Under the pieces are notes generated by a model that did not search any database, had not been told where the DNA came from, and saw only the letters and a list, made by a program, of their open reading frames with translations. From Schmidtea polychroa (Eukaryota): a stretch of 64,000 nt of DNA. The translations under genes and the position numbers were made by a program. Location: positions 212,102,001 through 212,166,000 of the forward strand of contig CM097885.1 in NCBI GenBank assembly GCA_044892525.1, given 5' to 3'. Below, in pieces: positions 1-23,235 of this stretch (positions within the stretch are counted from its first letter, which is position 1; each line of letters begins with the position of its first letter).

Positions 1-2233
1 CAAAATATCCATGAGAGATAACAGGCAGCATTTGAGGTAGATACAGGGTTCGTCAGTGATGTAACATGTCATATGGGAAGAACACACCTGCATGCATACA
101 CAGGCATAGTATAGAGCATGAAACGATCAGTCAGCGATTATGACTAAGTAGGAGTGGATGAGAAAAATTTTCATGTGCCACGCGTTTCCAGACCATCACC
201 GAGACTACTCGTAATCGGTAGATTATACAGACAGTCAATCACAGAGAACCCCACCTGGCGCGTCAGTTGAAATGTGATTACAAAAAACATACTAATGACA
301 TTCACCCGATTTCTCACCAATCGGAATTAACAGACAACCGACAGGCGGTCCTTTGGATGCACTTAGCTAAACTCATTTAATTATTTAGTTTTACTTTAAT
401 CATTCATATTTTCTTATAACTAAATAGGTGTAAATTAATTAACAAAACTTTTACGTGTCATAAATAAATAATTGTAGAGAAGGGGATAGATTACCGTTTA
501 TTTTTGGGTTCCTATTCATATGAAACAATTAATTTAAAAGTAAATCGACCTATTTGGACATGAGACTTACACCTCAAAATCATTTATCTTGGGTATATCT
601 GTAATTACATTCAAATTCTCTGACGATGCTATTTTCAGGTAAATTAATTAAATCATAATTTCATCAACTAGTGATTCCCCTTGTTAATGGTAATACTATA
701 TTTTCCTTCGATAAGATCTTGCATGGACGCTCTGTTCCCGTATAAATAATGACCCCAAGCGTACAAGATCTGTAGGGTAAAGAAGTCTCTTCAGGCTAAT
801 AAACTCGTTTCGTCTGTGTAACAACCTATGATCAGGGGGGTATGAGTGTGACTAGATGATGATGTCTCAAATTTGCCTTAGTTTGATTTTATTCGCATTT
901 TCTCTTCATAGCTATCCAAGATGTCTCCAAGTTCCAATAACATTCTTAAACCTTGCTTTTCTTGCTCGGACAAGAATTCAGTCATCAGAGATCTACAAGC
1001 GCAAATTGGAAAGTACAAAAGGAAGATAGATGAGTTGGAGGGGACATGGTTTAGTCCCGCGCAAATGAAGGAGACCCAGAAGAAATTGCATCGAAGCGAG
1101 CACTGTCGTGATGCTCTCATTTCCGAAAGTCGGGCACAGAGGAGCCTGATAAAAGAGCAGTCAGAAGCGCTGCATAAACTATACATACAAGCGGCGACCA
1201 CGAGAAAAATAGCGAAGATCCCAATTAACGAAGCCAGCAATCTCTTCCCAGCGCATCATGATACCTCCGTCAGGCTTTTGCCTCCACTCGCGAAGTCTTG
1301 CCATGGGTGTGTAGAGTCCGAGCTCTCTCCTAAAGACCCAGAGATTGTATTCACCGGGACCAGTAAGGTCCAGCCAAATCTCGCGTCCTCATCAACCGTA
1401 CAAACGATCACCACTTCAAAGCCTAAGCGTCGACAGCTGTCTCGAGCAGAACGCAAACGGAAACAACGGGAACGGGCATCTGGCAGGCAGTGTACATCGT
1501 CAACCGTCGCTCCAGTCAGCGGTAATGGTAATCTGACGGTGGTCGACCCAACAACCGGGATCTCCGGGCGAGTCATCTCCGCCGTCGGGGTGACGTGGGA
1601 AGAAAATGCCGCCGAGTTCTTTAATCTGGACGAGTTACTCGCCGACTCGGAGTGGGAGAAATGAGGATTTTCCCGAAACATGGCCTCCTTCTCAGGAGAG
1701 GATTGCACTTATCTGATGTCGTTTTCTACCTTGGTGTCATTCAGCTCGTGTAAAATTCCTTGTATAAATTCTCTAGGTGTTTGTATAGTAACTTTAATAA
1801 AAAAATAAAAAAATTTCTCGTTTATGTACGTGTTATCTCGTGTGTTGAACTTATAAAATAATATGAACTTGCAAATGGTATTGAGAGTTTCGGAAAATAA
1901 GGAGTATTGGTCAATTGGTAATCCCAATGGGAAATCTTGCGACGGGCGACAGAATGAAAAGACGTAAGTCCTTCTATCGGTGGTCAGGGTTAGACAGTCG
2001 AGGCCTCAGTAGGGAGTAGTCCGAAGGAGATGGCTCACCTGCCTACTGGTGTCTCGCCGGCATAGCACAGTTCCAACGTGAAGCGATTCACGGGTGCTAT
2101 GTTGGAGGGTAGATTATGTACGGGTCCTGCTCGGCGATGACCAGAATCAAGACGAGCGTAATCGATATGGACATTCATCCTCTAGATTAAAAGCGGTACT
2201 GAAGGGGGTCATCCGGGTAGCCGCCCGCCAACA
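1..2233 (+). repeat. 5' LTR (3' portion visible)
   Basis: Matches 25718-27950 with only three substitutions seen by eye (1013 G/A, 1981 T/C, 2187 T/C). Identity ends at CCGCCCGCCAACA(T). Confidence 0.97.
921..1664 (+). CDS. LTR-encoded 247-aa protein of unknown function (N-terminal coiled coil, Arg/Lys-rich KRRQLSRAERKRKQRER, acidic C-terminal tail)
   Basis: Intact ORF in both LTRs; the one difference seen is synonymous. Preceded by a polypyrimidine tract and TAG (acceptor at 911). Followed by AATAAA at 1796 and 1804. Confidence 0.75.
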   Translation: MSPSSNNILKPCFSCSDKNSVIRDLQAQIGKYKRKIDELEGTWFSPAQMKETQKKLHRSEHCRDALISESRAQRSLIKEQSEALHKLYIQAATTRKIAKIPINEASNLFPAHHDTSVRLLPPLAKSCHGCVESELSPKDPEIVFTGTSKVQPNLASSSTVQTITTSKPKRRQLSRAERKRKQRERASGRQCTSSTVAPVSGNGNLTVVDPTTGISGRVISAVGVTWEENAAEFFNLDELLADSEWEK

Positions 2234-2240
2234 TAATTTT

Positions 2241-2258
2241 TGGGGGCTCAGCCGGGAT
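2241..2258 (+). promoter_or_regulatory. Primer-binding site, tRNA-Pro type
   Basis: TGGGGGCTCAGCCGGGAT matches the classical tRNA-Pro PBS TGGGGGCTCGTCCGGGAT at 16/18 positions, 7 nt after the LTR end. Confidence 0.88.
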
Positions 2259-2484
2259 CATCAATTTCAATTAATTAGCGAATGCAAATTGACTAATACT
2301 TCTCGAATCTTATTATAAAAGTACGGTTAGAAAATGACGAAATTAAAGATATAAATAAAGTAAATTTAAAATTGGGAAAATAAAATAAAAGTAAAACAAC
2401 TTATAACAATTCAAAAGGGAAATGTTTGCTGAAACCACCATGTATTAGTTGTATATTATTAAAATATTTTCTTTTCTAATAGAC

Positions 2485-2970
2485 ATGACAGAATTCACAG
2501 AACTGATGAAACAACTAAGCAACTTCGTTGATATAGAAAACGATCCCATAAAAACGCTTACACAGAAAAGAGAGAGAATTAGGAGCATACAACTACAAAC
2601 AATGGGACAAGCACCAATCGTACCTAACCATATGTTATTAGCCATAGGCCTAAGTCGTGCAGATAGTAAAGTGAATCATGAAACCATATATCAGTGGTAT
2701 CAGGAAAGATTGAGACACCCCGCATTGAATCTAGAATATCATCGACTACGAGATCAATTAGATACTATATCCGACATAATCGAACAGAAGATACAAGAAA
2801 AGCTCACTAAATTACGAACCTGTCTGTCCTGCAAACTTCGTCCTATTCGCGTACTGTTCTTGCCCTGTGGACACCTCAGTCACTGCGAAGAATGTGTAAA
2901 CGATCTAAAACGGTGCACAATATGTAAGCACGAGATAAAAGAGACTCATATGGTTTATTATGGCGAATAA
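2485..2970 (+). CDS. RING-finger protein, C-terminal IAP/MDM2-like C3HC4 RING (161 aa from the second ATG)
   Basis: CLSC..IRVLFLPCGHLSHCEECVNDLKRCTICKHEI at the extreme C-terminus. TTTTCTTTTCTAATAG|acATG acceptor. AATAAA overlaps the stop. Confidence 0.85.
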   Translation: MTEFTELMKQLSNFVDIENDPIKTLTQKRERIRSIQLQTMGQAPIVPNHMLLAIGLSRADSKVNHETIYQWYQERLRHPALNLEYHRLRDQLDTISDIIEQKIQEKLTKLRTCLSCKLRPIRVLFLPCGHLSHCEECVNDLKRCTICKHEIKETHMVYYGE

Positions 2971-3520: not shown

Positions 3521-3835
3521 GAGATATTAAGGCCGAGCTGTCGAAAAGTCCAGCCGGTCAGGGAAATTGAAACTGAGCTGTGAAAAGTCCAGCCAGTCGG
3601 AGATATTAAGGCCGAGCTGTCGAATAGTCCAGCCGGTCAGGGAAATTAAAAACTGAGCTGTGAAAAGTCCAGCCAGTCGGAGATGTTAAGGCCGAGCCGT
3701 CAAAAAGTCCAGCCGGTCAGGATAATGAAGATTGAGCTGTTGAATAGTGCCAGCCAGTCGTAAGATCGAGTTGTCGAATAGTCCAACCGGTCGGGATGAA
3801 GAAGATTGAGCTGTTGAATAGTGCCAGCCAGTTGT
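3521..3835 (+). repeat. Tandem array in the gag leader: about 8 units of ~40 bp arranged as ~79-80 bp dimers
   Basis: Recurring core GAGCTGT(C)GAA(A/T)AGTCCAGCC(G/A)GTC with alternating A/B spacers. Confidence 0.9.
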
Positions 3836-5176
3836 AAAGGCCTAGAGAAACGAGAGATAGCATTTAAGCTACAATGAGATAGTATTTAAGTTAACAGTGG
3901 AATGGAATATTAAAGCTAGTTAAAACAAGTTGAATATTAATTACAAGAATTTGAATTGAGAGGAATAAACGAGCTCGTGAAAAATGATAACAAGATTATA
4001 ACGAGAAAAAGTAAGAGAAGAGGGAAATGAATTAAAGAGATAATGGTAAACAAAGAATAAGCGAAAAGAGATGATGAGTAGAAGAGGAAATAATCAACTA
4101 ATTAAAGGGATCCCAGTGAAGTAGAGAAACTCTACGGAATATTTAATTTTTTTTGTTTAAACCGGGGAAATTAATTTATTAGTTCTAGCACAGAACTGAG
4201 TGAGAAATAGTAAAGACGAAAAAATGAGTAACATAGCGACAATGGCGCCAAAGGATTAGGAAAATAAAGGGGGGTAATAAGCAGTGACCGACAACGACCT
4301 ATTCATATTATAAGTATTAAAGATAGATAATTATTACGACTCTATAGATAATTGTTACTACCCCATATAGATAATTTAAAATCGACGAAAAATACGGGCT
4401 GATGGGAGATTATAACCCGCGGAAGTAATTGCATAAAAAATAGGGGAAGCATAAACAGAACCTAAAAGGTGTCTGTGTTTGGATGTTGCAGAAAGAATGA
4501 TGAAGTCGTGTAAGCAGATGCAACACGAGATCATTTTTTCATTTTAGATATCAAACCAATCCAGTCAATCAAGCCAATCCAGAACCTGCACAAAGGGAAT
4601 TCGAAGAAACCACCAATCAACCCAAGATAACTGATTCAGAACCCGCACGGCAAGAATAATCCAACTCGAAGACGGAAGACGATACAGATAACGACCCATC
4701 CAACTTCAAACGAATCACCGATACATTCAGTCTCGTGGTATTAGCAGCCATCAGCCAAGGACTCATAAATCTCCTCAGAATATCATTAGCGGAATCACAC
4801 AGGATACTCTTCGAAGACAATCTAGTCAGAACCGAACTCGCCCAACTCAGCAGTCGCTAGCTACAAGAAATCCACAAGAAACGGCTGAGAAGCGTAGGAA
4901 AGAATCACGGATAAACCAAATCTTAGATCTTCAAGTAAGCCAGGAGACGTATTATTTTCAGGAGACGAATTACAACAACTCAAAAGAGGACGATCCATTA
5001 AACAACAAAGAGGAATATCACAAGGAGCACGAAGAACCAATCAAATACCCATATTTGACCAAGAAAATCTCGGGTACACCCCTAGTCGATCTCGAAGCAG
5101 AGAAAGTCTATCCGACATCACTAATAGTTTAGCAACGTCAACCGAAGAACTATCGGCCCAAAGTCTAGTCACATCA

Positions 5177-7177
5177 TTGGATAACTTAAAAGAAACAGAC
5201 GAAGCTAGAACACCAATCATGACAAATGTCGTAAAGATCGACGAATATAAAGAGAAGTTCAGAGGAGAACCGTTCAACGGGAATGCAAACAAGTTAGCAA
5301 CGTTCATAACCAATTTTGAAGTCTATATCGATGTGTGTGGATGGACGTCCGAAGCAATTAGTAAACGGATGCCGTTGTTTTTATGCGATAGCGCATTAGA
5401 AGTGTATTTAGAAGCTAAAGAAAGAAATACGAAGTTAGACAGTTGGGAAAGCATCAAAACATTCCTGAGGAAAACTTTCGGAGCCAGCAAACCAATAAAT
5501 CAAGCGCTAAGCGAACTAGCAAGTAGAAAACAAAGAGCAAACGAATCCATAACATTGTATGCGAGTGAATTGCGAAGATTGGCAAAGAAGGCCATGAACG
5601 GAAACTTGCCGGAGGAAAATTTAATTGGTTATTTCATAGAAGGACTGCGCCGAGAAGAGGTAAGGGCCTCGGTGGGATGTCAAATGTGTAAAACACTAGA
5701 GGAAGCCATAGATTGGGCCACGAGATGCGAACTACACCTCCCGGCACAAATGAATGTCATGCAGGAGGAGGGGAGAATCGCAGCCGCAACGATAAAAACG
5801 GAAAATGGAGATAACAACAATCACGAACCAAAGATGAATCAATTTATACCGGGTGCACATCAAATTTTCAAACCACCACAAGGACGATCAAACGGGAATA
5901 ACAGTGAACGCAACAACTCGAACAATGGGAATAATTTTAATAATCGACGAAATACGAACGATAACAAACAATGCCGAACATGCGGTAAACCAGGACATTG
6001 GGATAGAGATTGTTACCGAAACGCAAATTGCAATAGGTGTGGACGACGAGGACACACGGAAAATATATGTCAATTGAGAGGGTGTTTTAACTGTGGTCAA
6101 CCAGGTCACATCTCAAGAGACTGTCGAGCAAGGAGCCAACCACAACGACCACCACAGCGAAATAATCATTATGCACCAAATCCGCAACGACAAAGTAATC
6201 CTAGTGAGGGAAAGCAAATGAATGTGATGCAAGAGATTTCACAAATGAAGCAGATGATGCAACAAATGATGAGACCGAGACAAGAACAAGTACCACAACA
6301 AACCCAGAATATACGCATGATGAGGAGTACCGAGAATCTTAACAATTATGAAGTGCAACAACATGCACAAGAATGGCAGAGACTACAAGCTGAAGAAGAG
6401 AGAATAAAAAGAGAGCGAATTCAGCAGCGACAAGAACAACCATTGCGAATAAATATGATGAGAATGGTAAGGGAGATAAAAGAGCAATATTGTTACAATT
6501 ACGGTAAAAATCCAAGAGTTGTACCTATGAGCGAACCAGAGAAACCGAAAGAAACAATTATAGAAACCAAAAAGGAAAGCCCAACAACACCGCTAAAGGG
6601 AAATCAGAGAATTCAGAAAATATTTTGGAAAAAGATAAAAGATAAAATCGAAAGAGAAAATGAGAAAACAAAAACAGAAGCAGAAGCGATAAATGATGGA
6701 AACGAGAAACAAACTAGTCATTTAACCCATGAAATGGTACAAGAATTAAAATCGGAAGAATTAACGATATTTGAGAATAAAAAGCTCAAGAAAGTACCAA
6801 GAATGAGAAATTTACGAATTAACATGATGAGGACGACAAAGAAGGTGTTGTCAACAGATGACGATGAGGATTATGTGAGTAGCCTTGGTGGAGAAATGTT
6901 ACAGTTAAATGAAAATATCGACCAACTAAGGGAAAAGATCGGAGCAGATGAGGATGAAAGTGAAAGCGACGTGACAAGCGAAAGCGCAGACGAGAATATC
7001 GAAATGAAATTGAGAAAAGAAAGAGACGAAGCGATAAAACAAGTAAAAGAAATACTTCCAGTGGTGGTCAGAAACCAGGAATTCATTGACAGTATACCAT
7101 ACAGACGCTTCATACAAAAGATAATGAAACTAGAAAGAAACGAAATAGACCTAATACCAAACGAGAAAAAGCGATAA
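5177..7177 (+). CDS. gag: Gag (capsid domain, three CCHC zinc knuckles, long charged C-terminal extension)
   Basis: Retrotransposon-gag-like helices (SWESIKTFL..F, RKQRANESI..YA.ELRRLA, FIEGL). Knuckles CRTCGKPGHWDRDC, CNRCGRRGHTENIC, CFNCGQPGHISRDC. 5177 is TTG; first ATG is 5219; frame is open from 4898. Confidence 0.93.
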   Translation: MDNLKETDEARTPIMTNVVKIDEYKEKFRGEPFNGNANKLATFITNFEVYIDVCGWTSEAISKRMPLFLCDSALEVYLEAKERNTKLDSWESIKTFLRKTFGASKPINQALSELASRKQRANESITLYASELRRLAKKAMNGNLPEENLIGYFIEGLRREEVRASVGCQMCKTLEEAIDWATRCELHLPAQMNVMQEEGRIAAATIKTENGDNNNHEPKMNQFIPGAHQIFKPPQGRSNGNNSERNNSNNGNNFNNRRNTNDNKQCRTCGKPGHWDRDCYRNANCNRCGRRGHTENICQLRGCFNCGQPGHISRDCRARSQPQRPPQRNNHYAPNPQRQSNPSEGKQMNVMQEISQMKQMMQQMMRPRQEQVPQQTQNIRMMRSTENLNNYEVQQHAQEWQRLQAEEERIKRERIQQRQEQPLRINMMRMVREIKEQYCYNYGKNPRVVPMSEPEKPKETIIETKKESPTTPLKGNQRIQKIFWKKIKDKIERENEKTKTEAEAINDGNEKQTSHLTHEMVQELKSEELTIFENKKLKKVPRMRNLRINMMRTTKKVLSTDDDEDYVSSLGGEMLQLNENIDQLREKIGADEDESESDVTSESADENIEMKLRKERDEAIKQVKEILPVVVRNQEFIDSIPYRRFIQKIMKLERNEIDLIPNEKKR

Positions 7178-7188
7178 TAAAGAAGTAT

Positions 7189-10100
7189 ATGGAAAAAATG
7201 AAACAAGCAGAGACAACACGCTACGTAATAAAAATTGGAACGAGCAAAGGACTCGAGAGAATATGGATAAAAAACACCGTTACAGACGAGCTCTTTGACT
7301 GGATAAGAGAACATTTGGGCAGCTCGAGAAAGAAAGAATACCTGTATCAATATCAAGGAGAACAAATCAAACCCGACATGCACCTAATAGATGCACTGAT
7401 CTGGCCAGGAGAAACTCAAATATTGAAGTTGCATAAAGAGAAGCAACCAACAAATGTTCACGAATGGGCTAAAGACGCCAAGGCGGAATACGATTTTAAT
7501 ATCAAGCTGAAGTTGGAACAAATAAAACAATGCACCTTGCGACGAAATCTAGATAAATTAATCAAACAAATCCAAGAACAAGTCGAAGACAACTGGGATT
7601 TGCTCATAGCAAGACGAACTCCAGACATGCATGAACTAATGAGCCGACTGCGCGATACAGAATTGCTCCGAATGAGTGATTGGAGAACCATAAATTTGAT
7701 CCACAAATACGGAAGATTAAAAGAAACGCAACCACAGAAATTGGAAATAACCATATGGTTACCAAACGAGGAGAAACGGCGAATAAAAATGAGCAACCAG
7801 AGTACGGTGGACGATTTAGTATCAAAGATAAACCAAGAAATAACGGAAAAAGTTCGAAGCGAGAGCAGCGATGGTATGATAGATGATGTAGTCATGATGT
7901 ACGACAAAATAATACTACGGGCTGAAGACGATACCTCGTTAAGCGAAATGGGAATGTGGGATAATCATCAAATAATTAGAATATTGCCCATGGACGAATT
8001 CCGAACAAGAGATGTAACATACCAGAAAGAGATACGGGACAGGATGAAAACGCTATACCAAAAATCAGTAGAGATAATCGAAATTCATCAACAATGGCTA
8101 AAAGAAAAAGAACTACAAGGAAAAATAAGGAAACTAAGTGTTAGATCCTGCAGACGAACCCCATGGGAAAGGATGTGGAATGCGGAAAACAAAGAATGGG
8201 AAATTAGGAAAGGGATTTTCGTGGAAACAGACATTGGTGAGATAGAAAGTGAATCAGAAGAAGAGGAAGATGAACCTCCAAAATACGAAGAGGACGAAAT
8301 AGAATCGATATCGGACGACGAAAGCGAAACGGATGTCACGTCAGAAAGTGAAACGGAAATCAGGCATATTCGTGCAATGAGAAAGAAGGAACGCGAGTAC
8401 GCCGACATAGACGGTGAAGAGGCAAAAGAAGCGAGAGATCGAGAAGAAAGAGAAAGATACAAACAATTAAGCGACATCTTAGAGACGGGGACAAAGAATC
8501 AGAAAAGACAAACGATAGCACTAGCCAATTTCATCCTAAAAATATCGGACAATATCCAGTATCTGAGAGAGATAGTAAAAACTATAGAGGAATACCGGCG
8601 ATACAACGAATGGTACCCGGAACAATTGGAACAAATCATTGGGAAGTGGCGAAACCATGAATGGTCACAAGACACCCAAGAAAGATATCGAATTCGAATT
8701 AAATACCCGGATAAAACTGTAGAAGAAGTGGAAGTACATCCAACCACAAAAATCAGAGAATTAAAAAAGAAACTAGCATACGAAACCCCATTCCATCTAC
8801 AACTACAAGGAAAATCATTAGATGACAATGTGGATGTCGGAATAACACCCATGAGGTTAGGGGAGATCAATGTATTAACAATGGCAGAAACATTGGGAAA
8901 ACCAATTAAAAGGAAGAGCAAATCCAGTAAAACTACGAAAGGTAGCTTGAGTACACCAAGCCCTGACAAAGTGGCGAGTAAATCGAACGAAACTGAGGAA
9001 ATTGAGGAGATCATATTAGAAGACAGCGATGAGGGAGCTGGAGAAAGATCGCCGATATTAGTAAGATGGCCGACAGGGGCAGAGATTTGGACAACAAGCC
9101 AGCCATCAACTAGTTACCAGCAACCGAGTAAGTTGAGTATTGAGGAGATTATCGATAATACGACAGAAACCGAAACCGATGAACAATTCCAACGACAAAA
9201 GGGATCAATGAGAATAACACCTGAAGGGCAAACAGACAAAATAATAGACGAATGGAATGAGTGGCTGAGAAACAACGATAGCTCATTACCAAGAACAGAT
9301 AACGAAAGAAACCCGAGTTACGAAAGGACAAGAGAAGCTGGAACAATGATGGAGAAACGGGCAAAAGGGAGGCCCAAGAAGCAAGGAGAAAAACCAGAAT
9401 TTAAAACCAGAGAACAGTTGAAACAGGAACAAGGACAAGTCAGATTAGAGAAATTGGATAAAATAGTATGGGACCTAAAAGAAGCTCAACCAACAATCGA
9501 GAGAGGCGAAAAATGGATACGAGAGCTAGTAAAGGATATGTTAATAATAACGAGTCCGCAATTGAGACGATTATGGCAACGAAAAGTGGCAAGCGTAGAC
9601 GCCAGACAACTATGGAATGTAATATCCGGAATAATTCCGAAATTAATTAAAGAGAAGACAAAAACCACTAAAACCGATTGGGAAGAGACAAGAAGAGTAA
9701 TTGAGCAATTAACTCTAAACGCAAACGACGACGAACATCATTTAGTAGTATTAACGTATCTAATGTACAATTTGATGGGATTAGCAGCAAGAAAAATACC
9801 TAACAAACAATTTGCAAATCATGTAGAAATGACCGTTACAATCATTGAAAATACAATCGAACCACATATTATCCGTGCCGGAGGGTGGAAAAGACTCATA
9901 CAAGCGCCACGAAAAAACGAGCAAGAGAGATCAATGCAAATTCGGTTGAAAAAATTACTAAACGAGCTAGAATGGGAATTGCCATTAAAGGACCCAGCCA
10001 GCAGAAAGGCGTCGATTAATTCACTAATGATGACCATGATGATATGGATGCTCTGCACCAGCGGAGCAGCTGGATTCACAATCTACGACTGTGACAATTC

Positions 10101-13100
10101 GATAATGGGAGAAAAATACTCCCTAAGAGATATAGAGGAATGTAGACAGGCATCTCCGAATAAATTGGATATAGTAAAAAAGAAAGTCTCCTACCACGTA
10201 TACCAAGAATCAGATTTTATCCGAACACAAGCTAGAGAATGCGTAGTATCAAAGAAGGTGTTGGCGTATTACTGTGGACAATACTCATATTCAACCCTCA
10301 TATTACCTGGATTAGATAAAGAAATAGTACCTATACAACGAGAAGACTGTAAAGAGCTTTTTAGAACCGGAGCGATGAGAATCCGGGATGGAGTAACAAT
10401 ACACGGACAAAGCGGAATGATCAAGACGGAAAGTATCTACGTAGCCGGACGGGTAAAATCAACCGATGGATCATGCAACGGAGGTACATATACGATCCGA
10501 GGAGAGGTAATATCCGGAGTAGTAGTAATCGAGTCCTACACAGTGGAGTTGAAGGAATACGAAGCGCAATTCGACGCAAATAATTATCAAATGAAAACCA
10601 ACCCAGCATGCAGAGCTACGGAAAACGTGTGTAGAACGGGAATTTCGACTATAATATATGAAGCCAACACCCAAAAATGCCGACTCCAATTGTTAAAAAG
10701 TGCTCTATTCAATAAAGTAAAAGGAGAAATATACGAAAACGAAGATGACGATGAAGAGAATGGAAACGTAAGAATGCGAAATGGGAAACCAGTTCCACCA
10801 TCCCCCAAAGAAAAGAGACTCACAACACAAAAAACACCAACGGCATTAATTACAGATGATCCAGATATCGGTATGAGATTCATCAGAGAAAAAGAGACCA
10901 CCAAATGTGACAGTATAGTATACCGGACGAACTACGCAGGTATCTACATGTCAAGGCAAGTAATAGACCGAGCAGTGGGAAAGGTAGCAACGGAGGACGT
11001 AAAATTGTACTTGTATGCCAATAATAAGATGGACTTCTTATTCCATCGAGGACAAACAACAATGCAAAAAGTGTATTACGATCTTATACAAAATGACTGT
11101 TCATTGAATAAAGAGATACTAAAAACAAAATTAGCCATCGCAATAACACACCCAGATAACACAATGCCATCACTCCCGTTACCGGATGGACACTTTGGTA
11201 GAATGGTGGGAGAGGTAATGTATACATATGCATGTACCAAGACGTTTGCGCGACTACCAAGAAAACCCACAATTCCACCAGGGAAATGTGCAAACGAATT
11301 AGAAATTAGTTACAAAGGGCGGAACAGATTCGTTCAACCCGTCACTAGAATTATGAACCCAATTGGATTTTATCCGAACACCTTTAACTGTTCAAATGCA
11401 TACGGGCCATTTTATGAAAAACCCGATGGGAAATGGATAATGTTACCGTTAAAAGTCGAAGTGCAGGAACCTAAAAAGTTTGGATTAATAGAACTTGCAA
11501 CAGAACAGGATTTCAAACCAATTGATGTGTCAAAGGCGGGTATGTACTCACCAGAGGATTTAGAAACGGCACGATTAAACGTACTATTCCCAGCAAGGCG
11601 AGAGTCCATTTTATCAAATATGGTTACCATAACTGGTGGAACAAATTTTCAATCAAGTCCCAATTATGAACTATTATTATCACCGGATCATTTTCAACAA
11701 GCCACGTCAAACATGATGAAAGCAATGTGGGGAAGATTTCTAGTGTTCGGTCAAATGATGGCAGGAATATTGGGAATCATCTTAATTATTCAGATAGTCA
11801 GAGTAATATTGACCCAAATGTTGGCATGTTTCGATATATACAAACGAGAAAAGAAAGTAAATTGGAAGTTGATAGTAGGTTTTCTACCATTTTTGGCAAA
11901 AACAATGGTGTTGCACGGTCATTCTAAAGATATACACAGAATAAAACGATTAATCAAAATACTGACAAAAATAAAAGGGACAGACGAAGAAGTTGGCAGA
12001 CGATTCCGGAAAACAATGTATGATGAAGCAACGAGAGCGCAACTAAAAAAGAACAAACCAAAATTCTTCGACAGATTTAGGAATCGATCAAACAGCAGCG
12101 ATAGTGATGATGACGACAACGGGAATGACAAATATCCATATCCAAGTAGAAACCCGAATGAAAAACCAATAGAAACAGCGCCATATTGGGAGAAAGAAAA
12201 AACAAATACCTGGATAGCCAACGGAAGTTATATACCCCCAGATATTGTTGGACAACAAGCAGCTCTAACCATGACACAAAATATGTATCCACAGTTACCA
12301 AGTCAACCAGGAATGAATTATATGCCAACCCGAAGAACGAAAAGTGTAGATCAAGCAGACGACGTCAGAACAATAGCAGTAATGAGTTCACCTGGAGGCG
12401 CGGCAGTAACAGTCATGATCCAAATCAACGGGAAAGAGACAAGCGCAATGATAGATACCGGAGCAAATGTATCAGCAATAGCAATAAACCAAATACCCAG
12501 TAAATATTGGAAAGATATCGAACAAACAACTATCCATATTATTGCATGCAGTAAAGAAACCGTAGACGTAGTAGGAAGATGGTGGACTACGTTACGATAT
12601 CAAGATAATGAAATTGAAACGTATCTAGCGGTGATACCCAAACTGAGTGAACCATGTATAATCGGAACGGATTTAATGCCGGAGTTGTTCAAGGAAGTAG
12701 TAATTGATTTAACAACAATGTGTCTAAAAGACAAAATGGGTAGAATATGCAAGATGAACGCAATAATTAGATGCCCGGAGAAAATAATTGTACCAGCAAA
12801 ATCACAGATGATATGTCAAATAAAAGTGGATGCAGGAATGGAAGGAGAAGCCATTTTTGAGCCAAGCAAATCATTCGAAAAACGACGAGAATTACCATTA
12901 GCAAGAGAAATAATAACAATAAATGAAGAAGGGGAAATACCAATTAACATCACAAATTTCGAAGAGGAAGATAAAATCATATATGAAAATGAAAGATTGG
13001 GTAGATTGACACCCATGATAGACATCGAATTGCCAAAAATCACCAATGAATCAACGAAAGCTGAAGAATTATGGATAATTGATAGCACCTTGCTAACGGA

Positions 13101-16100
13101 AAAGGAGAAGGAAAGACTCCAACAACTATTGATAGAATATAAAGATATATTCGCAATTTCGGATTTGGATTTGGGAGCATGTGAGGTCACACTACACGCA
13201 ATACCATTAATAGACGAAACTCCAATTGCGTTACGACCATATAAACTAGCAGAGAAGCAAAAAGAGATAGCCGAAGCAGAAGTGCAAAAAATGCTAGATG
13301 CACAAGTGATCGAACCAAGTTGTTCGCCATGGCAATTTCCAGTAGTCATGGTGAAGAAAAAAGACGGTACTCAGAGATTCTGTATCGATTATCGGAAACT
13401 AAATGCAGTAACAAAAAGAGACACATACCCGTTACCAGACATCAATGAGATGTTACTTATGCTGCAGGGGGCCGCATATTTTACATCTTTAGATCTGAAA
13501 AGTGGATATTGGCAGATCAAAGTAAAGGAGGAAGACAAAGAGAAAACAGCATTCACATTGGGCCGAGATCTATACCAATTCAGGAAAATGCCGTTTGGAC
13601 TAACCAATGCCCCAGCATCATTTCAGAGATGTATGAATTTTGTCACACACGGGATCAAGCAGTGTATGGTATATATTGATGATTTATTAATATATTCAGC
13701 AACATATGAACAACATTTGGAAGATATCAGAAACGTGTTCATCCGATTACGACAATGGAAACTGAAACTTAAACCATCCAAATGTGATTGGGCAAAAGAA
13801 AAAGTTACGTTCTTAGGACACATAGTGTCAGCAAAAGGCAAAGAACCAGATCCAAGAAACATAGAAAAAATAAAAACATGTCCAGCACCAAAAACTGTCA
13901 CCCAAGTTCAAGAATTTCTCGGATTATGCGGATATTATCGTAAATTCATTAAAAACTATGCAGGTATTGCGAAACCAATCCAAGAGTTGGTGAAAAAAGA
14001 TATCTCATTTATTTGGGGAGCAGAACAGCAAAAAGCATTCGAAACACTACGAGACAAATTGATTGAAGCTCCAATACTAGTACATCCTGATTTCAAGAAA
14101 CCGTTCTTGTTAGCAACAGATGCCAGTGGATATGCAGCCGGAGCAATATTGGGACAACTCGACGAGGAAGGAAAAGAAAGAGTGATTGGATACTACAGCA
14201 GAACGTTTAAAAAGCATGAGAAAAACTATTCCGTAACTGAAAGAGAAGCGTTAGCAATAATACAAGCGATTAAGCACTTTCGATATTTGTTATGGGGACA
14301 CGAAATATGTATCACAACGGATCATCAACCATTAGTATGGCTCGGACAGCATAAAGAAGCTTCAAGTAGATTGATGCGATGGGCAATGCAGTTACAAGAA
14401 TATTCACCGTTCATAAAATCCAAAGCGGGAAGAGCAAATGCCAATGCAGATTGTATGTCCAGATTTATTTTTCCAGACTTAGTAGATCACGAAATGCAAC
14501 GAATATGTCTGATGGTAGCGGAAGATTTAGATTTTTGCCAATTACGGAAAGACCAACAAGAGGATGTAGAGTTGAAACAAATAATCGAGTATGTGAAAAC
14601 CGGGAAAGCAGAGGCATATGAGAAAGATCAAAAATTGAAAGAGCATATGGATAAACATCGACATCGATATATTATCGAGAAGGATTGGTTATTGATAATG
14701 GATGGGGAAAAGAGATTGATGTGCATCCCCGAGAATAGACGTAAAGATTTGCTAACGCAATACCATGACGGAAGACTCGGAGGACATATGTCATCTAAAA
14801 AGACGTTAGCACGGATGAAACAAAAATACTTCTGGCCTACGTTATCCGAAGACATAACGGAATGGGTGAAGAATTGTATAACTTGCGCAACCAGAAGAAA
14901 CACGGGAACAAAATGGAAGGCACCATTAAAGCCAATGCCAGTACCAGCAGAACCCATGACTATGATATCTATGGATGTAGTCGGTCCATTACCAGAATCA
15001 GATAGAGGGAATATTTACATATTGGTGATCACGGACTATCTGACTAAATTTCCCGAAGCATTCGCTATGGCAGACCAGAAAGCAAAAACAATCGCAAAAA
15101 TATTAGTAGAGGAAATATGTTGTCGATATGGAACGCCGAAACAAATACTGACCGATCAAGGAACAAATTTCATGAGTGAGATAATGAGCGAAGTAACCAA
15201 TTACTTCAAGATTGCAAAATTAAGAACATCACCGTACCACCCACAAACAAATGGTATGACAGAAAGATTCAACGGAACCTTGATCCAGATGTTATCAAAT
15301 TATGTCGATCGTCATCAACGAGACTGGGATGAATACATAAAATTATGTCTAATGGCTTACAGAATGTCGATTCACGCGTCCACAAAGATGAGTCCGTTCA
15401 AGTTGATGTACGGCAGAGAATGCAATATGCCAATGGATTTGGAGTATCAGCCACCAATATCACAATACATGGAAATAGACGATTACGTAACCAAGTTCAA
15501 GGAAAGAATGCAGGAAATCTGGGAAACTGCAGGATTGAATGTAAAATTTTATCAAGAAAGTTACAAAGATTTACATGATAGAAAGAAAAACGTCAAACCA
15601 CATACGTTTCAAACAGGCGATTGGGTGATGATCGAAACACCGGAATTGATTCCAGGAACCACCAAAAAATTGCAACGAAACGGCAAAGGACCGTATGAAA
15701 TTTTATTCGTCGGAGAAACTAATGTAAGAGTACGATTAGTGAACAACCCTTTTACAAGACCAATATACGTAAATGTTGCACGATGTAAGCCAATTCCGAA
15801 AACCGCCACCAGTCAGCCAGAAGGACGCACATTAACGACAAGATCACAAACGTATAGAATAAATATGTTACAGCAGATAAACGAACCAACAGGTAATCGA
15901 TTGGGGTTACAACCCTCAGAAGCCGAGAAAATCATAAAGGAAGTAAAAGCTAAAATGCCCGGATGGGCAAAAGACAGATTAGATTTTGAGATATTGGGAG
16001 GTCTGCTAACAATGATAGAAAACTATGCCAATCGAGAAAGAACACACCCATTACTCAGAGTGGTTAAAAGTCAATGGCCTATATTATTCACAATCACAGA

Positions 16101-18927
16101 TCACTACGGAGATACACCACTACACAAACTTTTAAAGGTTGGTAATAATGAACAAATACTAGAGACAATTGAAGAATTTCGCGACTGTAACATTTCGACA
16201 GATCAAGAAAACAACCAAGGTTACACTCCACTAATGATAGCAGCCAATCGGGATAAAGCTAAAGATATTATTATCGCATTACTTGAAACTGGGTCAAAGA
16301 TAACCACACAAGATCACCACCAGAAAAATGCACTACATCATGCAATCGAAGGGAAAAGTACGGAAGCCTTCATAATCTTAGTAGATCTATTATCGTACGA
16401 GGATAATAGGGAGATAGGAAACATGTATGACGGGCTATTAACCGCGATCAAAGAGAAATTAATAACAATTACTGGATTACTAATTGCATGGAGGAACCCG
16501 ATCAAAAACGATTATATGGTAGATATAAACGAAACATTTACCAAAGGGGAAAACACCTTGATGAGAGAAGCGATGAGAGGACATCACCTATTCGAAATTC
16601 CCAATCAACTACTACAACGTGGCATAAAGTTTTCAAATCACAAAGACGAACAACTAATCAGAAAACGGATTACCAACTTCGAAAAAACTATATCTCAATT
16701 TACCGATAAAGTACAAGTAAAATATTGGGAAACCGTGAGTGTATTATCTATGATGGAAACTATGAATAACATTCGAGAAAACTACCTAAGTATTATTCAA
16801 GTTCTAACGGCAGAGGAACGCATTAACAGTTCGAACAAGAAAAAGATAAAAATGAAGAAAGTAAAAGCAAGAGAGTCTGAGGAACAAGTCGATCAAATAA
16901 TAACCGATATAGCAACAACAAGTAAACCAAAGATAATAAACTCAGACCAAGAGATAATACTACGCAAAGCCAAAGAGGTGTTCTTTGAAGAAATGCGAGA
17001 TTTATCTGACGAAGCAATACTATCAAAAATAATAAAAACAGTACACACCTACGCAAGAGATCAGACCACAAATCTAGACATAGGAAAAATAAAAACATTC
17101 ATACCACTAGCATTCACCTTACCAACGAAAGATTCAAGAACACCATTACAACAAGCAATATTAGCAGCAAAAGAAAACAGAGCAATAACCATCATAAGAA
17201 TTCTTAGAGATTTCGGAGAAGAATCAAATGCAAAAAATGAACAAGGAGAAACAGCAATGATGTATGCAGCAATAACAAATATACACCCGAAAACCTTACA
17301 TATACTACACCAATCAGGTTCGAGACTTGACGAGAAATCAAACGAGGGAAATTCTGCCATGGATTGGGCAACAATACAACCAAACTTGGAGATGATTAGA
17401 TTCATTTGTAAAAATGCTACAAGAACTGAGGTAGAAAATATCTGTAAAAACACGTCACAGTTCCAATGGAATACGATACGGAAAAGCTTAGAAGCCATGA
17501 AGTTATTGTTAACCTGGAAAATACCACAAAGCAATAAATATGCAATAAATATAAATGAGTTCTACGAAAACGGAGAAAATGCTATGGTTAAGAATACGTT
17601 GACAAAAGGAGGAACTCCGAAAATCATAATGATCGTATTGAACAGAGAAGACCTCAAATTCACGCAAAATCAAAACGAACAAAAGCGAATCGGAAAACAT
17701 CGTCGAATACAATTAAGGGAATTGGTAAAAGAATGGAATAGAAAAAGACATGCAGCAACAGGAAGAAAAGAGTTTGAATTCGAAGCAAAATTAGCAAGAA
17801 ATAGAGTGCTAACAGCATATCGCAGATTGTTGAACGATATAAATGTCGAGGACGACATTTTAAACGACAGCGGGAGAGATAAAGACGACGATAATGATGA
17901 AACAGGTCAAAACGGGAATGGAGAGAAAGAGAAATCAAAGGAGAATAATCAAGGGAATAACGACTCAAGTATAAAAAAGGAGGAAAATAAACCGGGAAAC
18001 CGAACAAAGGAAGAGGAAAAGACGAATAATGGGAAACAGAGGGTATGCCTACTTTTTACCAACAAGGAAATGGAGACAAATATGATGATAATGATACTCA
18101 TACTAACAATGGTAGAAATGATAACAGCCCACGGTGGAATGAGAACGATAAAAGAAGCCAAAGAAACGGAAAATAAAGACAACAAAGAGGAAGAACTAAA
18201 ACAAGAAAAGAAAAAGCAAGTACAAGAACAACAATGGGATTTGAAGGAGGAATGGAATCTAAAAGAAAGGTGCATACTAGGAAGATGTGTGTCGAGAGCA
18301 TATCAGAGACTAGTGTTAATAAACGAAGATACAGAACCGATAACGGAAGTAAGAATACAAGAAGCATACCGAAATCGAGACGGAAGGAGAATAACGAAAG
18401 TCAAAGGGAAGGAGGTACACCTGGAAAAAGGAGGTGAGGTAGTGATAACGCAACTCCAGCCAAGAAAAGAACACAAAGTCTGCATTTCAAGATTAGGACC
18501 GGGTGAAGACTGTCTACAATATGTAACACAGCAACAACCTCCAAAAGAATACACAGTATGCATCTGGAGAAAAGATACAGCGAGAGAATGTCGACGATAC
18601 CCTGGGAAAAGAGGGAAGAAAAGAAAAAGCAACGATGAGAAAGAGGAGGAAGAAAAGCGCAAGAAAACTAGTGAGAAATATCAAGATAATTACGTGTCAG
18701 AAGAAGAAATGGAAAAAATACAAAAAATGGCAAAGGAAGGGATCAATGAGGAAATAACGAAAATACGGGGATTGGAGAAAGGAAAAAGCCAAACAGAGAA
18801 AGATGCAGAAACAGCAAGTACAATAACAGGCAATGGAAACTCAGAGACCATCAGTGTAAAGCAGATGATATGGATCAGCGGAATAATAATAATCGGAGCG
18901 TTCATAACTATAACGGGGGGACGATAA
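7189..18927 (+). CDS. pol: 3912-aa polyprotein: Ubl x3 - Bcl-2-like - Env-like glycoprotein - PR - RT - RNase H - IN - ankyrin x2 - C-terminal membrane protein
   Basis: Uninterrupted ORF. Motifs IDTGA (PR), YIDD (RT), TDASG/EREALA/TDHQPL (RH), HHCC + DVVGP/TDQG/ERFN + GPY (IN). Confidence 0.96.
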   Translation: MEKMKQAETTRYVIKIGTSKGLERIWIKNTVTDELFDWIREHLGSSRKKEYLYQYQGEQIKPDMHLIDALIWPGETQILKLHKEKQPTNVHEWAKDAKAEYDFNIKLKLEQIKQCTLRRNLDKLIKQIQEQVEDNWDLLIARRTPDMHELMSRLRDTELLRMSDWRTINLIHKYGRLKETQPQKLEITIWLPNEEKRRIKMSNQSTVDDLVSKINQEITEKVRSESSDGMIDDVVMMYDKIILRAEDDTSLSEMGMWDNHQIIRILPMDEFRTRDVTYQKEIRDRMKTLYQKSVEIIEIHQQWLKEKELQGKIRKLSVRSCRRTPWERMWNAENKEWEIRKGIFVETDIGEIESESEEEEDEPPKYEEDEIESISDDESETDVTSESETEIRHIRAMRKKEREYADIDGEEAKEARDREERERYKQLSDILETGTKNQKRQTIALANFILKISDNIQYLREIVKTIEEYRRYNEWYPEQLEQIIGKWRNHEWSQDTQERYRIRIKYPDKTVEEVEVHPTTKIRELKKKLAYETPFHLQLQGKSLDDNVDVGITPMRLGEINVLTMAETLGKPIKRKSKSSKTTKGSLSTPSPDKVASKSNETEEIEEIILEDSDEGAGERSPILVRWPTGAEIWTTSQPSTSYQQPSKLSIEEIIDNTTETETDEQFQRQKGSMRITPEGQTDKIIDEWNEWLRNNDSSLPRTDNERNPSYERTREAGTMMEKRAKGRPKKQGEKPEFKTREQLKQEQGQVRLEKLDKIVWDLKEAQPTIERGEKWIRELVKDMLIITSPQLRRLWQRKVASVDARQLWNVISGIIPKLIKEKTKTTKTDWEETRRVIEQLTLNANDDEHHLVVLTYLMYNLMGLAARKIPNKQFANHVEMTVTIIENTIEPHIIRAGGWKRLIQAPRKNEQERSMQIRLKKLLNELEWELPLKDPASRKASINSLMMTMMIWMLCTSGAAGFTIYDCDNSIMGEKYSLRDIEECRQASPNKLDIVKKKVSYHVYQESDFIRTQARECVVSKKVLAYYCGQYSYSTLILPGLDKEIVPIQREDCKELFRTGAMRIRDGVTIHGQSGMIKTESIYVAGRVKSTDGSCNGGTYTIRGEVISGVVVIESYTVELKEYEAQFDANNYQMKTNPACRATENVCRTGISTIIYEANTQKCRLQLLKSALFNKVKGEIYENEDDDEENGNVRMRNGKPVPPSPKEKRLTTQKTPTALITDDPDIGMRFIREKETTKCDSIVYRTNYAGIYMSRQVIDRAVGKVATEDVKLYLYANNKMDFLFHRGQTTMQKVYYDLIQNDCSLNKEILKTKLAIAITHPDNTMPSLPLPDGHFGRMVGEVMYTYACTKTFARLPRKPTIPPGKCANELEISYKGRNRFVQPVTRIMNPIGFYPNTFNCSNAYGPFYEKPDGKWIMLPLKVEVQEPKKFGLIELATEQDFKPIDVSKAGMYSPEDLETARLNVLFPARRESILSNMVTITGGTNFQSSPNYELLLSPDHFQQATSNMMKAMWGRFLVFGQMMAGILGIILIIQIVRVILTQMLACFDIYKREKKVNWKLIVGFLPFLAKTMVLHGHSKDIHRIKRLIKILTKIKGTDEEVGRRFRKTMYDEATRAQLKKNKPKFFDRFRNRSNSSDSDDDDNGNDKYPYPSRNPNEKPIETAPYWEKEKTNTWIANGSYIPPDIVGQQAALTMTQNMYPQLPSQPGMNYMPTRRTKSVDQADDVRTIAVMSSPGGAAVTVMIQINGKETSAMIDTGANVSAIAINQIPSKYWKDIEQTTIHIIACSKETVDVVGRWWTTLRYQDNEIETYLAVIPKLSEPCIIGTDLMPELFKEVVIDLTTMCLKDKMGRICKMNAIIRCPEKIIVPAKSQMICQIKVDAGMEGEAIFEPSKSFEKRRELPLAREIITINEEGEIPINITNFEEEDKIIYENERLGRLTPMIDIELPKITNESTKAEELWIIDSTLLTEKEKERLQQLLIEYKDIFAISDLDLGACEVTLHAIPLIDETPIALRPYKLAEKQKEIAEAEVQKMLDAQVIEPSCSPWQFPVVMVKKKDGTQRFCIDYRKLNAVTKRDTYPLPDINEMLLMLQGAAYFTSLDLKSGYWQIKVKEEDKEKTAFTLGRDLYQFRKMPFGLTNAPASFQRCMNFVTHGIKQCMVYIDDLLIYSATYEQHLEDIRNVFIRLRQWKLKLKPSKCDWAKEKVTFLGHIVSAKGKEPDPRNIEKIKTCPAPKTVTQVQEFLGLCGYYRKFIKNYAGIAKPIQELVKKDISFIWGAEQQKAFETLRDKLIEAPILVHPDFKKPFLLATDASGYAAGAILGQLDEEGKERVIGYYSRTFKKHEKNYSVTEREALAIIQAIKHFRYLLWGHEICITTDHQPLVWLGQHKEASSRLMRWAMQLQEYSPFIKSKAGRANANADCMSRFIFPDLVDHEMQRICLMVAEDLDFCQLRKDQQEDVELKQIIEYVKTGKAEAYEKDQKLKEHMDKHRHRYIIEKDWLLIMDGEKRLMCIPENRRKDLLTQYHDGRLGGHMSSKKTLARMKQKYFWPTLSEDITEWVKNCITCATRRNTGTKWKAPLKPMPVPAEPMTMISMDVVGPLPESDRGNIYILVITDYLTKFPEAFAMADQKAKTIAKILVEEICCRYGTPKQILTDQGTNFMSEIMSEVTNYFKIAKLRTSPYHPQTNGMTERFNGTLIQMLSNYVDRHQRDWDEYIKLCLMAYRMSIHASTKMSPFKLMYGRECNMPMDLEYQPPISQYMEIDDYVTKFKERMQEIWETAGLNVKFYQESYKDLHDRKKNVKPHTFQTGDWVMIETPELIPGTTKKLQRNGKGPYEILFVGETNVRVRLVNNPFTRPIYVNVARCKPIPKTATSQPEGRTLTTRSQTYRINMLQQINEPTGNRLGLQPSEAEKIIKEVKAKMPGWAKDRLDFEILGGLLTMIENYANRERTHPLLRVVKSQWPILFTITDHYGDTPLHKLLKVGNNEQILETIEEFRDCNISTDQENNQGYTPLMIAANRDKAKDIIIALLETGSKITTQDHHQKNALHHAIEGKSTEAFIILVDLLSYEDNREIGNMYDGLLTAIKEKLITITGLLIAWRNPIKNDYMVDINETFTKGENTLMREAMRGHHLFEIPNQLLQRGIKFSNHKDEQLIRKRITNFEKTISQFTDKVQVKYWETVSVLSMMETMNNIRENYLSIIQVLTAEERINSSNKKKIKMKKVKARESEEQVDQIITDIATTSKPKIINSDQEIILRKAKEVFFEEMRDLSDEAILSKIIKTVHTYARDQTTNLDIGKIKTFIPLAFTLPTKDSRTPLQQAILAAKENRAITIIRILRDFGEESNAKNEQGETAMMYAAITNIHPKTLHILHQSGSRLDEKSNEGNSAMDWATIQPNLEMIRFICKNATRTEVENICKNTSQFQWNTIRKSLEAMKLLLTWKIPQSNKYAININEFYENGENAMVKNTLTKGGTPKIIMIVLNREDLKFTQNQNEQKRIGKHRRIQLRELVKEWNRKRHAATGRKEFEFEAKLARNRVLTAYRRLLNDINVEDDILNDSGRDKDDDNDETGQNGNGEKEKSKENNQGNNDSSIKKEENKPGNRTKEEEKTNNGKQRVCLLFTNKEMETNMMIMILILTMVEMITAHGGMRTIKEAKETENKDNKEEELKQEKKKQVQEQQWDLKEEWNLKERCILGRCVSRAYQRLVLINEDTEPITEVRIQEAYRNRDGRRITKVKGKEVHLEKGGEVVITQLQPRKEHKVCISRLGPGEDCLQYVTQQQPPKEYTVCIWRKDTARECRRYPGKRGKKRKSNDEKEEEEKRKKTSEKYQDNYVSEEEMEKIQKMAKEGINEEITKIRGLEKGKSQTEKDAETASTITGNGNSETISVKQMIWISGIIIIGAFITITGGR
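7219..8880 (+). other. Three ubiquitin-like (beta-grasp) domains in the polyprotein N-terminus (about 7219-7434, 7741-7986, 8686-8880)
   Basis: IRIKYPDKTVEEVEVHPTTKIRELKKKL..FHLQLQGKSLDDN and LEITIWLPNEEKRRIKMSNQSTVDDLVSKI..EDDTSLSEMGM follow the ubiquitin pattern. The first copy is weaker. Confidence 0.65.
9460..9905 (+). other. Divergent Bcl-2-like domain in the polyprotein
   Basis: BH2-like IEPHIIRAGGWKRL versus Bcl-xL LEPWIQENGGWDTF. Upstream VIEQL..DEHHLVVL aligns to VVNELF..NWGRIVAF with a one-residue gap. Degenerate BH3-like QLRRL. Confidence 0.6.
10021..11916 (+). other. env: Envelope-like class III (chuvirus/gB-type) glycoprotein with signal peptide and C-terminal TM region
   Basis: Signal LMMTMMIWMLCTSGAAG, then FTIYDC..YSLRDIEEC..Q.S..C.V..YYCGQYSYS..C, the N-terminal pattern of chuvirus-type G proteins. 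TM WGRFLVFGQMMAGILGIILIIQIVRVIL at about 11728-11820. Confidence 0.8.
12406..12690 (+). other. Aspartic protease domain
   Basis: VMIQINGKETSAMIDTGANVS (catalytic D at 12454) and CIIGTDLM. Confidence 0.93.
13200..14460 (+). other. Reverse transcriptase and RNase H domains
   Basis: SPWQFPVVMVKKKDG, CIDYRKLN, DLKSGYWQI, MPFGLTNAPASFQR, YIDD (13672), TDASG, NADCMSR. Confidence 0.97.
14740..15790 (+). other. Integrase domain (HHCC, DDE core, GPY/F)
   Basis: YHDGRLGGH..CITC, MDVVGPLP, LTDQGTNF, PQTNGMTERFN, KGPYEI. Confidence 0.96.
15860..17850 (+). other. Tandemly duplicated ankyrin-repeat module after integrase
   Basis: GDTPLH, GYTPLMIAA, KNALHHAI, GENTLM in copy A. SRTPLQQAI, GETAMMYAA, GNSAMDWA, GENAMV in copy B. 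The A and B flanks align to each other. Confidence 0.88.
18070..18927 (+). other. C-terminal polyprotein segment: signal-like hydrophobic stretch, Cys-paired domain, terminal TM anchor
   Basis: MMIMILILTMVEMITAHG; repeated CISRLGPGEDC / CIWRKDTAREC; terminal MIWISGIIIIGAFITITGGR*. Confidence 0.55.
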
Positions 18928-19599: not shown

Positions 19600-19684
19600 A
19601 CCAAACCTAAATTAAAATGTAAATAACTGTAAATAAAATCTCGAGCCTGTTTCGATAAGAACTATATGTATATATAATTATAGA

Positions 19685-23196: not shown

Positions 23197-23235
23197 AAGC
23201 AATTAAAGCCAGTGTAAATAATATAATAATAATAG

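What the first reader, a model, noticed from the sequence alone, without database searches (positions are those of the whole stretch)
9460..9905. Bcl-2-like domain inside a retroelement polyprotein
Seen: TIIENTIEPHIIRAGGWKRL matches the BH2 pattern of Bcl-xL (TYLNDHLEPWIQENGGWDTF). The upstream helix pair aligns to BH1 at correct spacing (one gap), but NWGR is replaced by DEHH. A hydrophobic stretch follows (10021-10075). Known: large DNA viruses carry divergent Bcl-2-fold proteins, some lacking canonical BH motifs, that block apoptosis or NF-kB. Inference: a captured Bcl-2-fold modulator whose tail anchor may double as the Env signal peptide.
Basis: partly seen in the sequence, partly recalled or inferred. 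Interest (0 to 1): 0.85.

Follow-up and report, generated by a model that had tools for sequence, protein, structure and literature searches.

The report
Bcl-2-like domain in planarian Burro retroelement
A giant virus-like jumping gene, likely of a planarian flatworm, carries a much-diverged copy of the cell-death regulator Bcl-2 just ahead of its envelope protein; this cargo is already in print for such elements, and here it has lost the usual BH1 binding motif, so it likely works differently from a normal Bcl-2.

Summary
The domain is real but already reported. It sits in a young 29.5-kb Ty3/gypsy element (3.8-kb LTRs, 6 mismatches) in the order Gag, Ubl, Bcl-2-like, Env, PR, RT, RNase H, IN, ankyrin. 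PMC6431247 describes this layout, BCL2 motif included, for planarian Burro elements. Alone, the window domain scores weakly (Pfam Bcl-2 E 0.02). Four sister families hold a homologue in the same slot (best E 1.8e-6), and an element-only profile hits only Bcl-2/Bcl-xL among the 60 PDB rows shown. An AlphaFold model helped by host Bcl-2 rows matches Bcl-2 folds (Z 13.5, 130 residues, 2.5 A). The element-only model was low-confidence and did not. Corrections: NWGR aligns to DDEH, and the hydrophobic stretch is shaped like Env's cleavable signal peptide, not a captured tail anchor. In all 18 element rows the BH1 Gly is Asp/Glu, the Trp is gone and the helix-3 region is short, so a closed groove is likely. 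An ER-tethered, groove-independent modulator is my inferred mechanism; it is untested. The scan noted this feature before on other copies in this genome.

The parts
1..2233 (+). 5' LTR (3,814 bp; starts 1,581 nt before the window), ends TG...CA, 4-bp target-site duplication TTAT
   Evidence: 6 mismatches to the 3' LTR
2241..2258 (+). Primer-binding-site-like stretch after the 5' LTR (tRNA-Pro-like, from recall, not tested)
2449..2970 (+). Accessory ORF with C-terminal C3HC4 RING
   Evidence: PF13920 E 3.9e-11
4898..7177 (+). Gag (Retrotrans_gag, CCHC knuckles). In this copy it is in a separate frame from the rest; the frame is broken in the 7090-7177 overlap, while other copies read as one frame
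   Evidence: L096 holds Gag, Bcl-2-like, Env, PR and RT in one frame
7090..18927 (+). 3,945-aa frame: Ubl, Bcl-2-like, Env, PR, RT, RNase H, IN, ankyrins
8689..8838 (+). Ubiquitin-like domain (weak; a second weak one near 7768-7860)
   Evidence: several beta-grasp families at E 0.014-0.2
9496..9915 (+). Bcl-2-like helical domain (7 modelled helices, helix-3 region short)
9727..9738 (+). BH1-equivalent site, DDEH in place of NWGR
9838..9897 (+). BH2-like motif with GGW
10003..10074 (+). Predicted internal signal peptide of Env (RK, hydrophobic core, TSGAAG); inferred cleavage before F at 10075
   Evidence: by inspection, no SignalP-type program was available
10075..11811 (+). Env glycoprotein of Monjiviricetes-fusion type, transmembrane helix 11755-11811
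   Evidence: PF24664 E 1.8e-71; hydropathy 2.53
12412..15297 (+). Protease, RT, RNase H, integrase
16183..17418 (+). Two ankyrin-repeat blocks after the integrase
19637..21073 (+). TRAF-like accessory gene (RING, zinc fingers, MATH), interrupted by a stop at 20666-20668 here; one 479-aa frame in copy L127
24137..27950 (+). 3' LTR

Best explanation
This is a Bcl-2-derived helical domain in the polyprotein of a Burro-like envelope-carrying Ty3/gypsy element, directly before a predicted Env signal peptide, and it likely acts as an ER-tethered modulator of host death or stress signalling through a surface other than the classical BH3 groove. SHOWN: homology to Bcl-2; the same slot in five element families; loss of NWGR with Asp/Glu at the Gly position in 18 of 18 rows; a short helix-2 to helix-4 span; purifying selection. 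PREDICTED: the Bcl-2 fold (medium-confidence model). INFERRED: the internal signal sequence sends Env into the ER lumen while everything upstream stays cytosolic; signal peptidase cuts before FTIYDC, leaving the Bcl-2-like part anchored by the leftover peptide with tail-anchor-like topology; the element protease may trim it from Gag-Ubl; the groove is closed, as in vaccinia A52/B14; it works alongside the element's TRAF, RING, Ubl and ankyrin cargo to keep the producing cell alive or quiet. Confidence is about 0.93 for the identity and about 0.5 for this mechanism.
For: Pfam Bcl-2 is the top family for 6 of 6 element domains (E 1.8e-6 to 0.043) and hits 2 of 2 more (top for one, second for the other). 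An element-only profile (A2, 18 rows) matched 93 PDB sequences at E<=0.01; all 60 shown are Bcl-2/Bcl-xL, best E 4.2e-4. Model 2 (pLDDT 59.9, pTM 0.58): Foldseek rows shown are all Bcl-2 family, best E 7.4e-3, TM up to 0.68; VIA-align ranks 1-28 are all Bcl-2-fold proteins, Z 13.5 / 2.5 A / 130 aligned for KsBcl-2, first unrelated row Z 8.6; in BFVD ranks 1-5 are viral Bcl-2 homologues, E 0.18-0.62. BH1: Gly column D/E and Trp lost in 18 of 18 element rows; the 9 host/Polinton rows keep Trp in 8 and Arg/Lys in 9 and are never acidic at the Gly column; span 21-23 versus 26-36 residues. dN/dS 0.018-0.046 in 9 of 9 pairs. Groove-less Bcl-2 folds that inhibit NF-kB, one binding TRAF6, are documented (PMC2494871 passages). 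Layout in print (PMC6431247).
Against: Model 1, from element-only rows, was poor (pLDDT 55.4): Foldseek ranked Bcl-xL first but at E 0.64, TM about 0.25, rmsd 14, and VIA-align listed no Bcl-2 in its 50 rows, best Z 7.2. Model 2's alignment held 9 host/Polinton Bcl-2 rows, so it leans towards the fold, and the groove region (residues 17-35, 54-63) is under pLDDT 50, so groove closure is not seen in the model. No element domain reaches Pfam's cut-off. The upstream low-complexity linker has the same dN/dS (0.027-0.048), so selection is not specific to the domain; dS is near saturation and the pairs are not independent. The closest structural matches (KsBcl-2, Bfl-1, A179L) are BH3 binders and A52 is only rank 27 (Z 8.9). 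Several host-like proteins here also lack the BH1 Gly. No functional, localisation or processing data.
Confidence: 0.5

Rival explanations
1. Classical viral Bcl-2: the domain keeps a working groove despite the motif loss, binds host Bak/Bax or BH3-only proteins and blocks mitochondrial apoptosis.
For: Best structural matches are groove-type inhibitors KsBcl-2, Bfl-1, A179L, CNP058, BHRF1. Viral Bcl-2s often share little sequence with cellular ones (PMC7022251 passage). Planarians have mitochondrial apoptosis with Bak and Bcl-2 orthologues (same passage set). Family B keeps Lys at the Arg column.
Against: Acidic residue at the BH1 Gly in 18 of 18 rows, no Trp, short helix-3 region. That Gly-to-Glu changes here abolish BH3 binding in Bcl-2 and CED-9 is recalled; three searches found no held paper. 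An internal signal sequence points to the ER, not mitochondria (inference).
Confidence: 0.25
2. Structural reuse: the fold serves as a matrix- or leader-peptide-like tether that links Gag to the Env-bearing membrane during assembly, with no host target.
For: It sits between Gag and the Env signal peptide in all five families (16-54% identity between family representatives), including family B, whose 2,447-residue stretch scanned shows no other host-type cargo in Pfam. A fixed position suggests a topological role.
Against: TRAF, RING, Ubl and ankyrin cargo in the same element point to host manipulation. No known Bcl-2-fold matrix protein (from recall).
Confidence: 0.2
3. Chance resemblance: a generic helical linker with a GGW motif, not homologous to Bcl-2.
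For: The window domain alone is weak (E 0.02), finds no Bcl-2 chain in the PDB by phmmer, and model 1 did not give the fold.
Against: Independent hits for five families, E down to 1.8e-6; element-only profile to PDB; 0 of 500 shuffles reach its score; full-length structural match.
Confidence: 0.05

Closest known systems
Burro / GYPSM1 giant gypsy-like LTR elements of planarians (Jurka 2007 and Grohme et al. 2018 as reviewed in PMC6431247; passages read, primary papers not held)
   Same: About 30 kb with LTRs; single polyprotein of about 4,800 aa; Gag with CCHC knuckles; Ubl, then BCL2-like, then mononegavirus-type env in frame between gag and PR; ankyrins; MATH/TRAF cargo.
   Different: Here TRAF/MATH is a separate ORF downstream of the polyprotein (inside ORF1 in Burro1, upstream in the Dugesia element). 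BIR and dUTPase-like domains were not hit by Pfam. Which numbered Burro family this is was not determined. The review passages do not discuss BH motif loss or the signal peptide.
GAG-ENV-POL HSV/gB-type errantiviruses of Platyhelminthes (PMC13524379; passages read)
   Same: Ty3/gypsy with env between gag and pol, ectodomain flanked by signal peptide or TM.
   Different: The main text has no occurrence of 'Bcl' or 'Burro'. Supplements were not read and may list these elements.
Viral Bcl-2 homologues with a BH3 groove (KSHV Bcl-2, ASFV A179L, EBV BHRF1)
   Same: Predicted fold, Z 11.8-13.5; small compact bundle.
   Different: They are stand-alone genes of large DNA viruses, solved bound to BH3 peptides. 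This domain is part of a retroelement polyprotein and lacks BH1.
Groove-less poxvirus Bcl-2 folds (vaccinia A52, B14, A46)
   Same: Bcl-2 fold without BH motifs; act on NF-kB signalling, A52 via TRAF6 (PMC2494871).
   Different: Lower structural score (A52 Z 8.9, A46 Z 8.0); no sequence link; this domain keeps a BH2 motif. An analogy only.

Membership tests
Bcl-2 family | Helical bundle around central hydrophobic helix 5 | tested here: met
   Model 2, Z 13.5, rmsd 2.5, 130 of 146 aligned; caveat: alignment included host Bcl-2 rows, pLDDT 60; model 1 inconclusive
Bcl-2 family | Pfam PF00452 above curated cut-off (31.4 bits) | tested here: not met
   15.9 bits for the window; best sister tested 28.9; one decayed family-B copy scores 32.2
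Bcl-2 family | BH2 motif | tested here: met
   GGW in 18 of 18 element rows; first Trp is His in this family
Bcl-2 family | BH1 NWGR motif | tested here: not met
   DDEH here; NRDK, DRDV, DKEV, NKEV in sisters
Bcl-2 family | Open BH3-binding groove and BH3 binding | not testable with these tools
   Groove region is low-confidence in the model; needs binding assays
Bcl-2 family | C-terminal tail anchor | tested here: inconclusive
   Hydrophobic stretch is signal-peptide shaped and weak (1.40) in this family, stronger (1.9-2.6) in sisters
Burro-like elements | Giant Ty3/gypsy LTR element of about 30 kb, high copy | tested here: met
   29.5 kb; 150 of 150 scored matches at 92-100% identity, of 954 candidates
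Burro-like elements | Single polyprotein Gag-Ubl-BCL2-Env-PR-RT-RH-IN | tested here: met
   frame broken near 7090-7177 in this copy only among those compared
Burro-like elements | Ankyrin and MATH/TRAF cargo | tested here: met
   TRAF is a separate downstream ORF
Burro-like elements | BIR and dUTPase-like domains | tested here: inconclusive
   No Pfam hit at E<=1; the review found dUTPase with HHpred, which was not available
Burro-like elements | Sequence identity to a named Burro consensus | not testable with these tools
   No repeat library held

The most novel reading that the evidence does not exclude
One ancient capture of a host Bcl-2 gene by an envelope-carrying retroelement lineage was rebuilt into a groove-closed, BH3-insensitive Bcl-2 fold (acidic residue fixed at the BH1 glycine in all five families) that borrows Env's signal peptide as its membrane anchor and works with element-encoded TRAF, RING and ankyrin proteins: a poxvirus-style signalling-suppression kit in a retrotransposon.
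Probability: 0.3. Interest if true: 0.62.

Novelty: already known. Interest (0 to 1): 0.27.

Why it matters
The presence of the domain is known, but the review that describes it calls its role unconfirmed. If the mechanism holds, a retroelement carries host-control genes of the kind typical of large DNA viruses, and one peptide serves both as Env signal and as anchor. The fixed acidic residue at the BH1 glycine gives a concrete prediction (no BH3 binding) that a peptide-binding assay on the isolated domain can test, in an animal with RNAi and known Burro expression in differentiated tissue (PMC8532177 passages).

Tried and rejected
The search for homologous proteins found nothing three times. 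The representatives search gave one weak low-identity hit (E 5e-4, 9 stretches), not examined further. So no relative outside this genome was obtained. phmmer of the single domain against the PDB gave only a chance malate dehydrogenase hit. Model 1 was low-confidence and uninformative. The ESM Atlas was unreachable. The search for related loci could not use alignment A2. Grohme et al. 2018 is not held, so it is cited only through PMC6431247. Expression: no RNA holder listed on record; contigs of two runs guessed to be RNA cover 30 and 12 of 30 bins, which is not used as evidence. Three paper searches for the BH1 Gly-to-Glu mutants found nothing. A regex count of BH1 residues over all loci failed (0 of 77 parsed), so the counts come from the 27 rows of A3. 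The tree puts the 18 element rows on one side at 93/94 support, unstarred, with long branches meeting: one capture is not excluded, not shown; no test_one_clade was run and no donor could be named. Complex prediction was not used. Rejected: that the stretch at 10021-10075 is a captured Bcl-2 tail, and that the finding is new.

Full report
Observation. The quoted peptide is at 9838-9897 of a 3,945-aa frame (7090-18927). Pfam gives Bcl-2 as the only family for 9460-9906, at E 0.02, below cut-off. A single-sequence PDB search found no Bcl-2.

The element. The window holds a Ty3/gypsy element of 29.5 kb with 3,814-bp LTRs that differ at 6 places, TG...CA ends and a TTAT target duplication, so it is young. 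Order: RING ORF, Gag, two weak Ubl domains, Bcl-2-like domain, Env (PF24664, E 1.8e-71), PR, RT, RNase H, IN, ankyrins, then a TRAF-like ORF and coiled-coil ORFs. This copy is broken between Gag and the rest, and within the TRAF gene. Other copies read through: frames of 4,732 and 4,811 aa recur, L096 carries Gag to RT in one frame and L127 has a 479-aa RING-to-MATH frame. All 150 scored matches of 954 candidates are 92-100% identical and 146 of them have no stop in the domain (these are the best-scoring copies, so the figure is biased). The host is likely a planarian (inferred from element type and a 781-Mb AT-rich genome).

Sister families. Searches with PF00452, PF24664 and one sister domain led to four more env-bearing families (B-E). 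Each has a homologous domain before the Env signal peptide, at 16-54% identity between representatives. The full Gag-Bcl-2-Env-Pol order was checked by Pfam for A and B; for C, D and E only the Env start and long frames were seen. Pfam Bcl-2 is top for 6 of 6 domains (best 1.8e-6) and hits both E domains. A profile of 18 element rows alone matched 93 PDB sequences at E<=0.01, and the 60 shown are all Bcl-2/Bcl-xL (similar with 24 rows). In reverse, a profile of 9 host and Polinton Bcl-2 proteins scores the 18 rows at 14.6-42.5 bits, above all 500 shuffles of the window domain (best 7.9), though it missed the domain inside the whole frame. 'Host' is my label for low-copy hits whose context I did not check; L042 is 41% identical to a Polinton copy.

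Fold. Model 1 (element rows only) had pLDDT 55 and did not superpose on Bcl-2. Model 2 (trimmed; 18 element rows plus 9 host/Polinton rows) had pLDDT 60, pTM 0.58 and seven helices. It matched Bcl-2 proteins in all three searches: Foldseek PDB best E 7.4e-3, TM up to 0.68; VIA-align ranks 1-28, Z 13.5 / 2.5 A / 130 residues at the top, first unrelated Z 8.6; viral Bcl-2s at ranks 1-5 of BFVD with weak E-values. The added rows favour this fold, so the sequence tests carry more of the weight.

Motifs. BH2 GGW is kept in 18 of 18 rows. At BH1 the Trp is lost and the Gly column is Asp or Glu in 18 of 18, while the 9 host/Polinton rows keep Trp in 8 and are never acidic there. The span from helix 2 to the end of helix 4 is 21-23 residues against 26-36. 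The 18 rows are five families of near-copies, so this is five observations, not 18. From recall, Gly-to-Glu at this site blocks BH3 binding in Bcl-2 and CED-9; I could not find it in the held library. A shortened helix-2 to helix-4 region closing the groove is what PMC2494871 reports for A52 and B14 (passages). A closed groove here is inferred, not seen.

Hydrophobic stretch. In all five families it has basic residues, a hydrophobic core and small or polar residues just before the conserved YDC at which the Pfam Env model begins. In this family the 19-residue hydropathy is 1.40 against 2.53 for the Env TM. I read it as Env's internal signal peptide.

Selection. dN/dS for the domain is 0.018-0.046 in 9 of 9 window-versus-copy pairs, so it is translated and constrained. 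The upstream linker is similar (0.027-0.048), so this does not single out the domain.

What is known. PMC6431247 (passages) states that Burro elements carry a BCL2-like motif, a Ubl before it and in-frame env after it, and asks for experimental confirmation. PMC13524379 (passages) covers GAG-ENV-POL elements of flatworms without mention of Bcl; its supplements were not read. PMC8532177 (passages) shows BURRO1 transcripts in tissue, and BURRO1 RNAi did not rescue the smedwi-2 phenotype. PMC11410931, PMC7022251, PMC5691641 and PMC8502044 were seen as passages. I saw no treatment of the BH1 change or the signal-peptide tether in these passages or in the listings of searches; Grohme 2018 itself was not available. 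Earlier scan notes reached the same identification on other copies; I had reached it before that call.

Verdict. Real Bcl-2-derived domain, already known as Burro cargo. Most likely an ER-tethered, groove-independent host modulator (about 0.5), against a classical BH3 sink (0.25), a structural tether (0.2) or chance (0.05). Interest 0.27.

Noticed in passing
L046-L060, L069-L076, L080, L081: Two Polinton/Maverick families in this genome carry stand-alone Bcl-2-like genes (one with a short in-frame intron and a hydrophobic tail) next to a TBP-like gene (PF00352 E 2.9e-16). Bcl2 cargo is reported for adintoviruses (PMC8502044).
   Followed up: partly
L031-L037 (G000 C4, about 89.9-90.8 Mb): Seven near-identical canonical Bcl-2-family genes (NWGR intact) clustered on one contig.
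   Followed up: no
window 18082-18138 and 18865-18921: A second signal-peptide-like stretch and a terminal transmembrane segment at the end of the polyprotein, suggesting a second surface protein after the ankyrins.
   Followed up: no
window 912-1664 and 26629-27381: A 250-aa ORF lies inside each LTR; only a weak coiled-coil hit.
   Followed up: no
window 21239-23847: Three further accessory ORFs (360, 241, 203 aa), coiled-coil-like; the last looks like a small membrane protein; no confident Pfam family.
   Followed up: no
window 3482-3837: Tandem array of about 80-bp units in the 5' untranslated region.
   Followed up: no
window 45907-51819 (- strand): A second, ordinary 5.9-kb gypsy-like element with 577-bp LTRs at 99.5% identity.
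   Followed up: no
L064 1677-3842: Family B carries a 722-aa ORF downstream of pol with no Pfam hit; by eye it has a DEDDh-exonuclease-like motif.
   Followed up: no
window 29785-35635: Exons of a host gene with WD40-like repeats flank the element on the 3' side; looks like CTF4/WDHD1 by eye.
   Followed up: no
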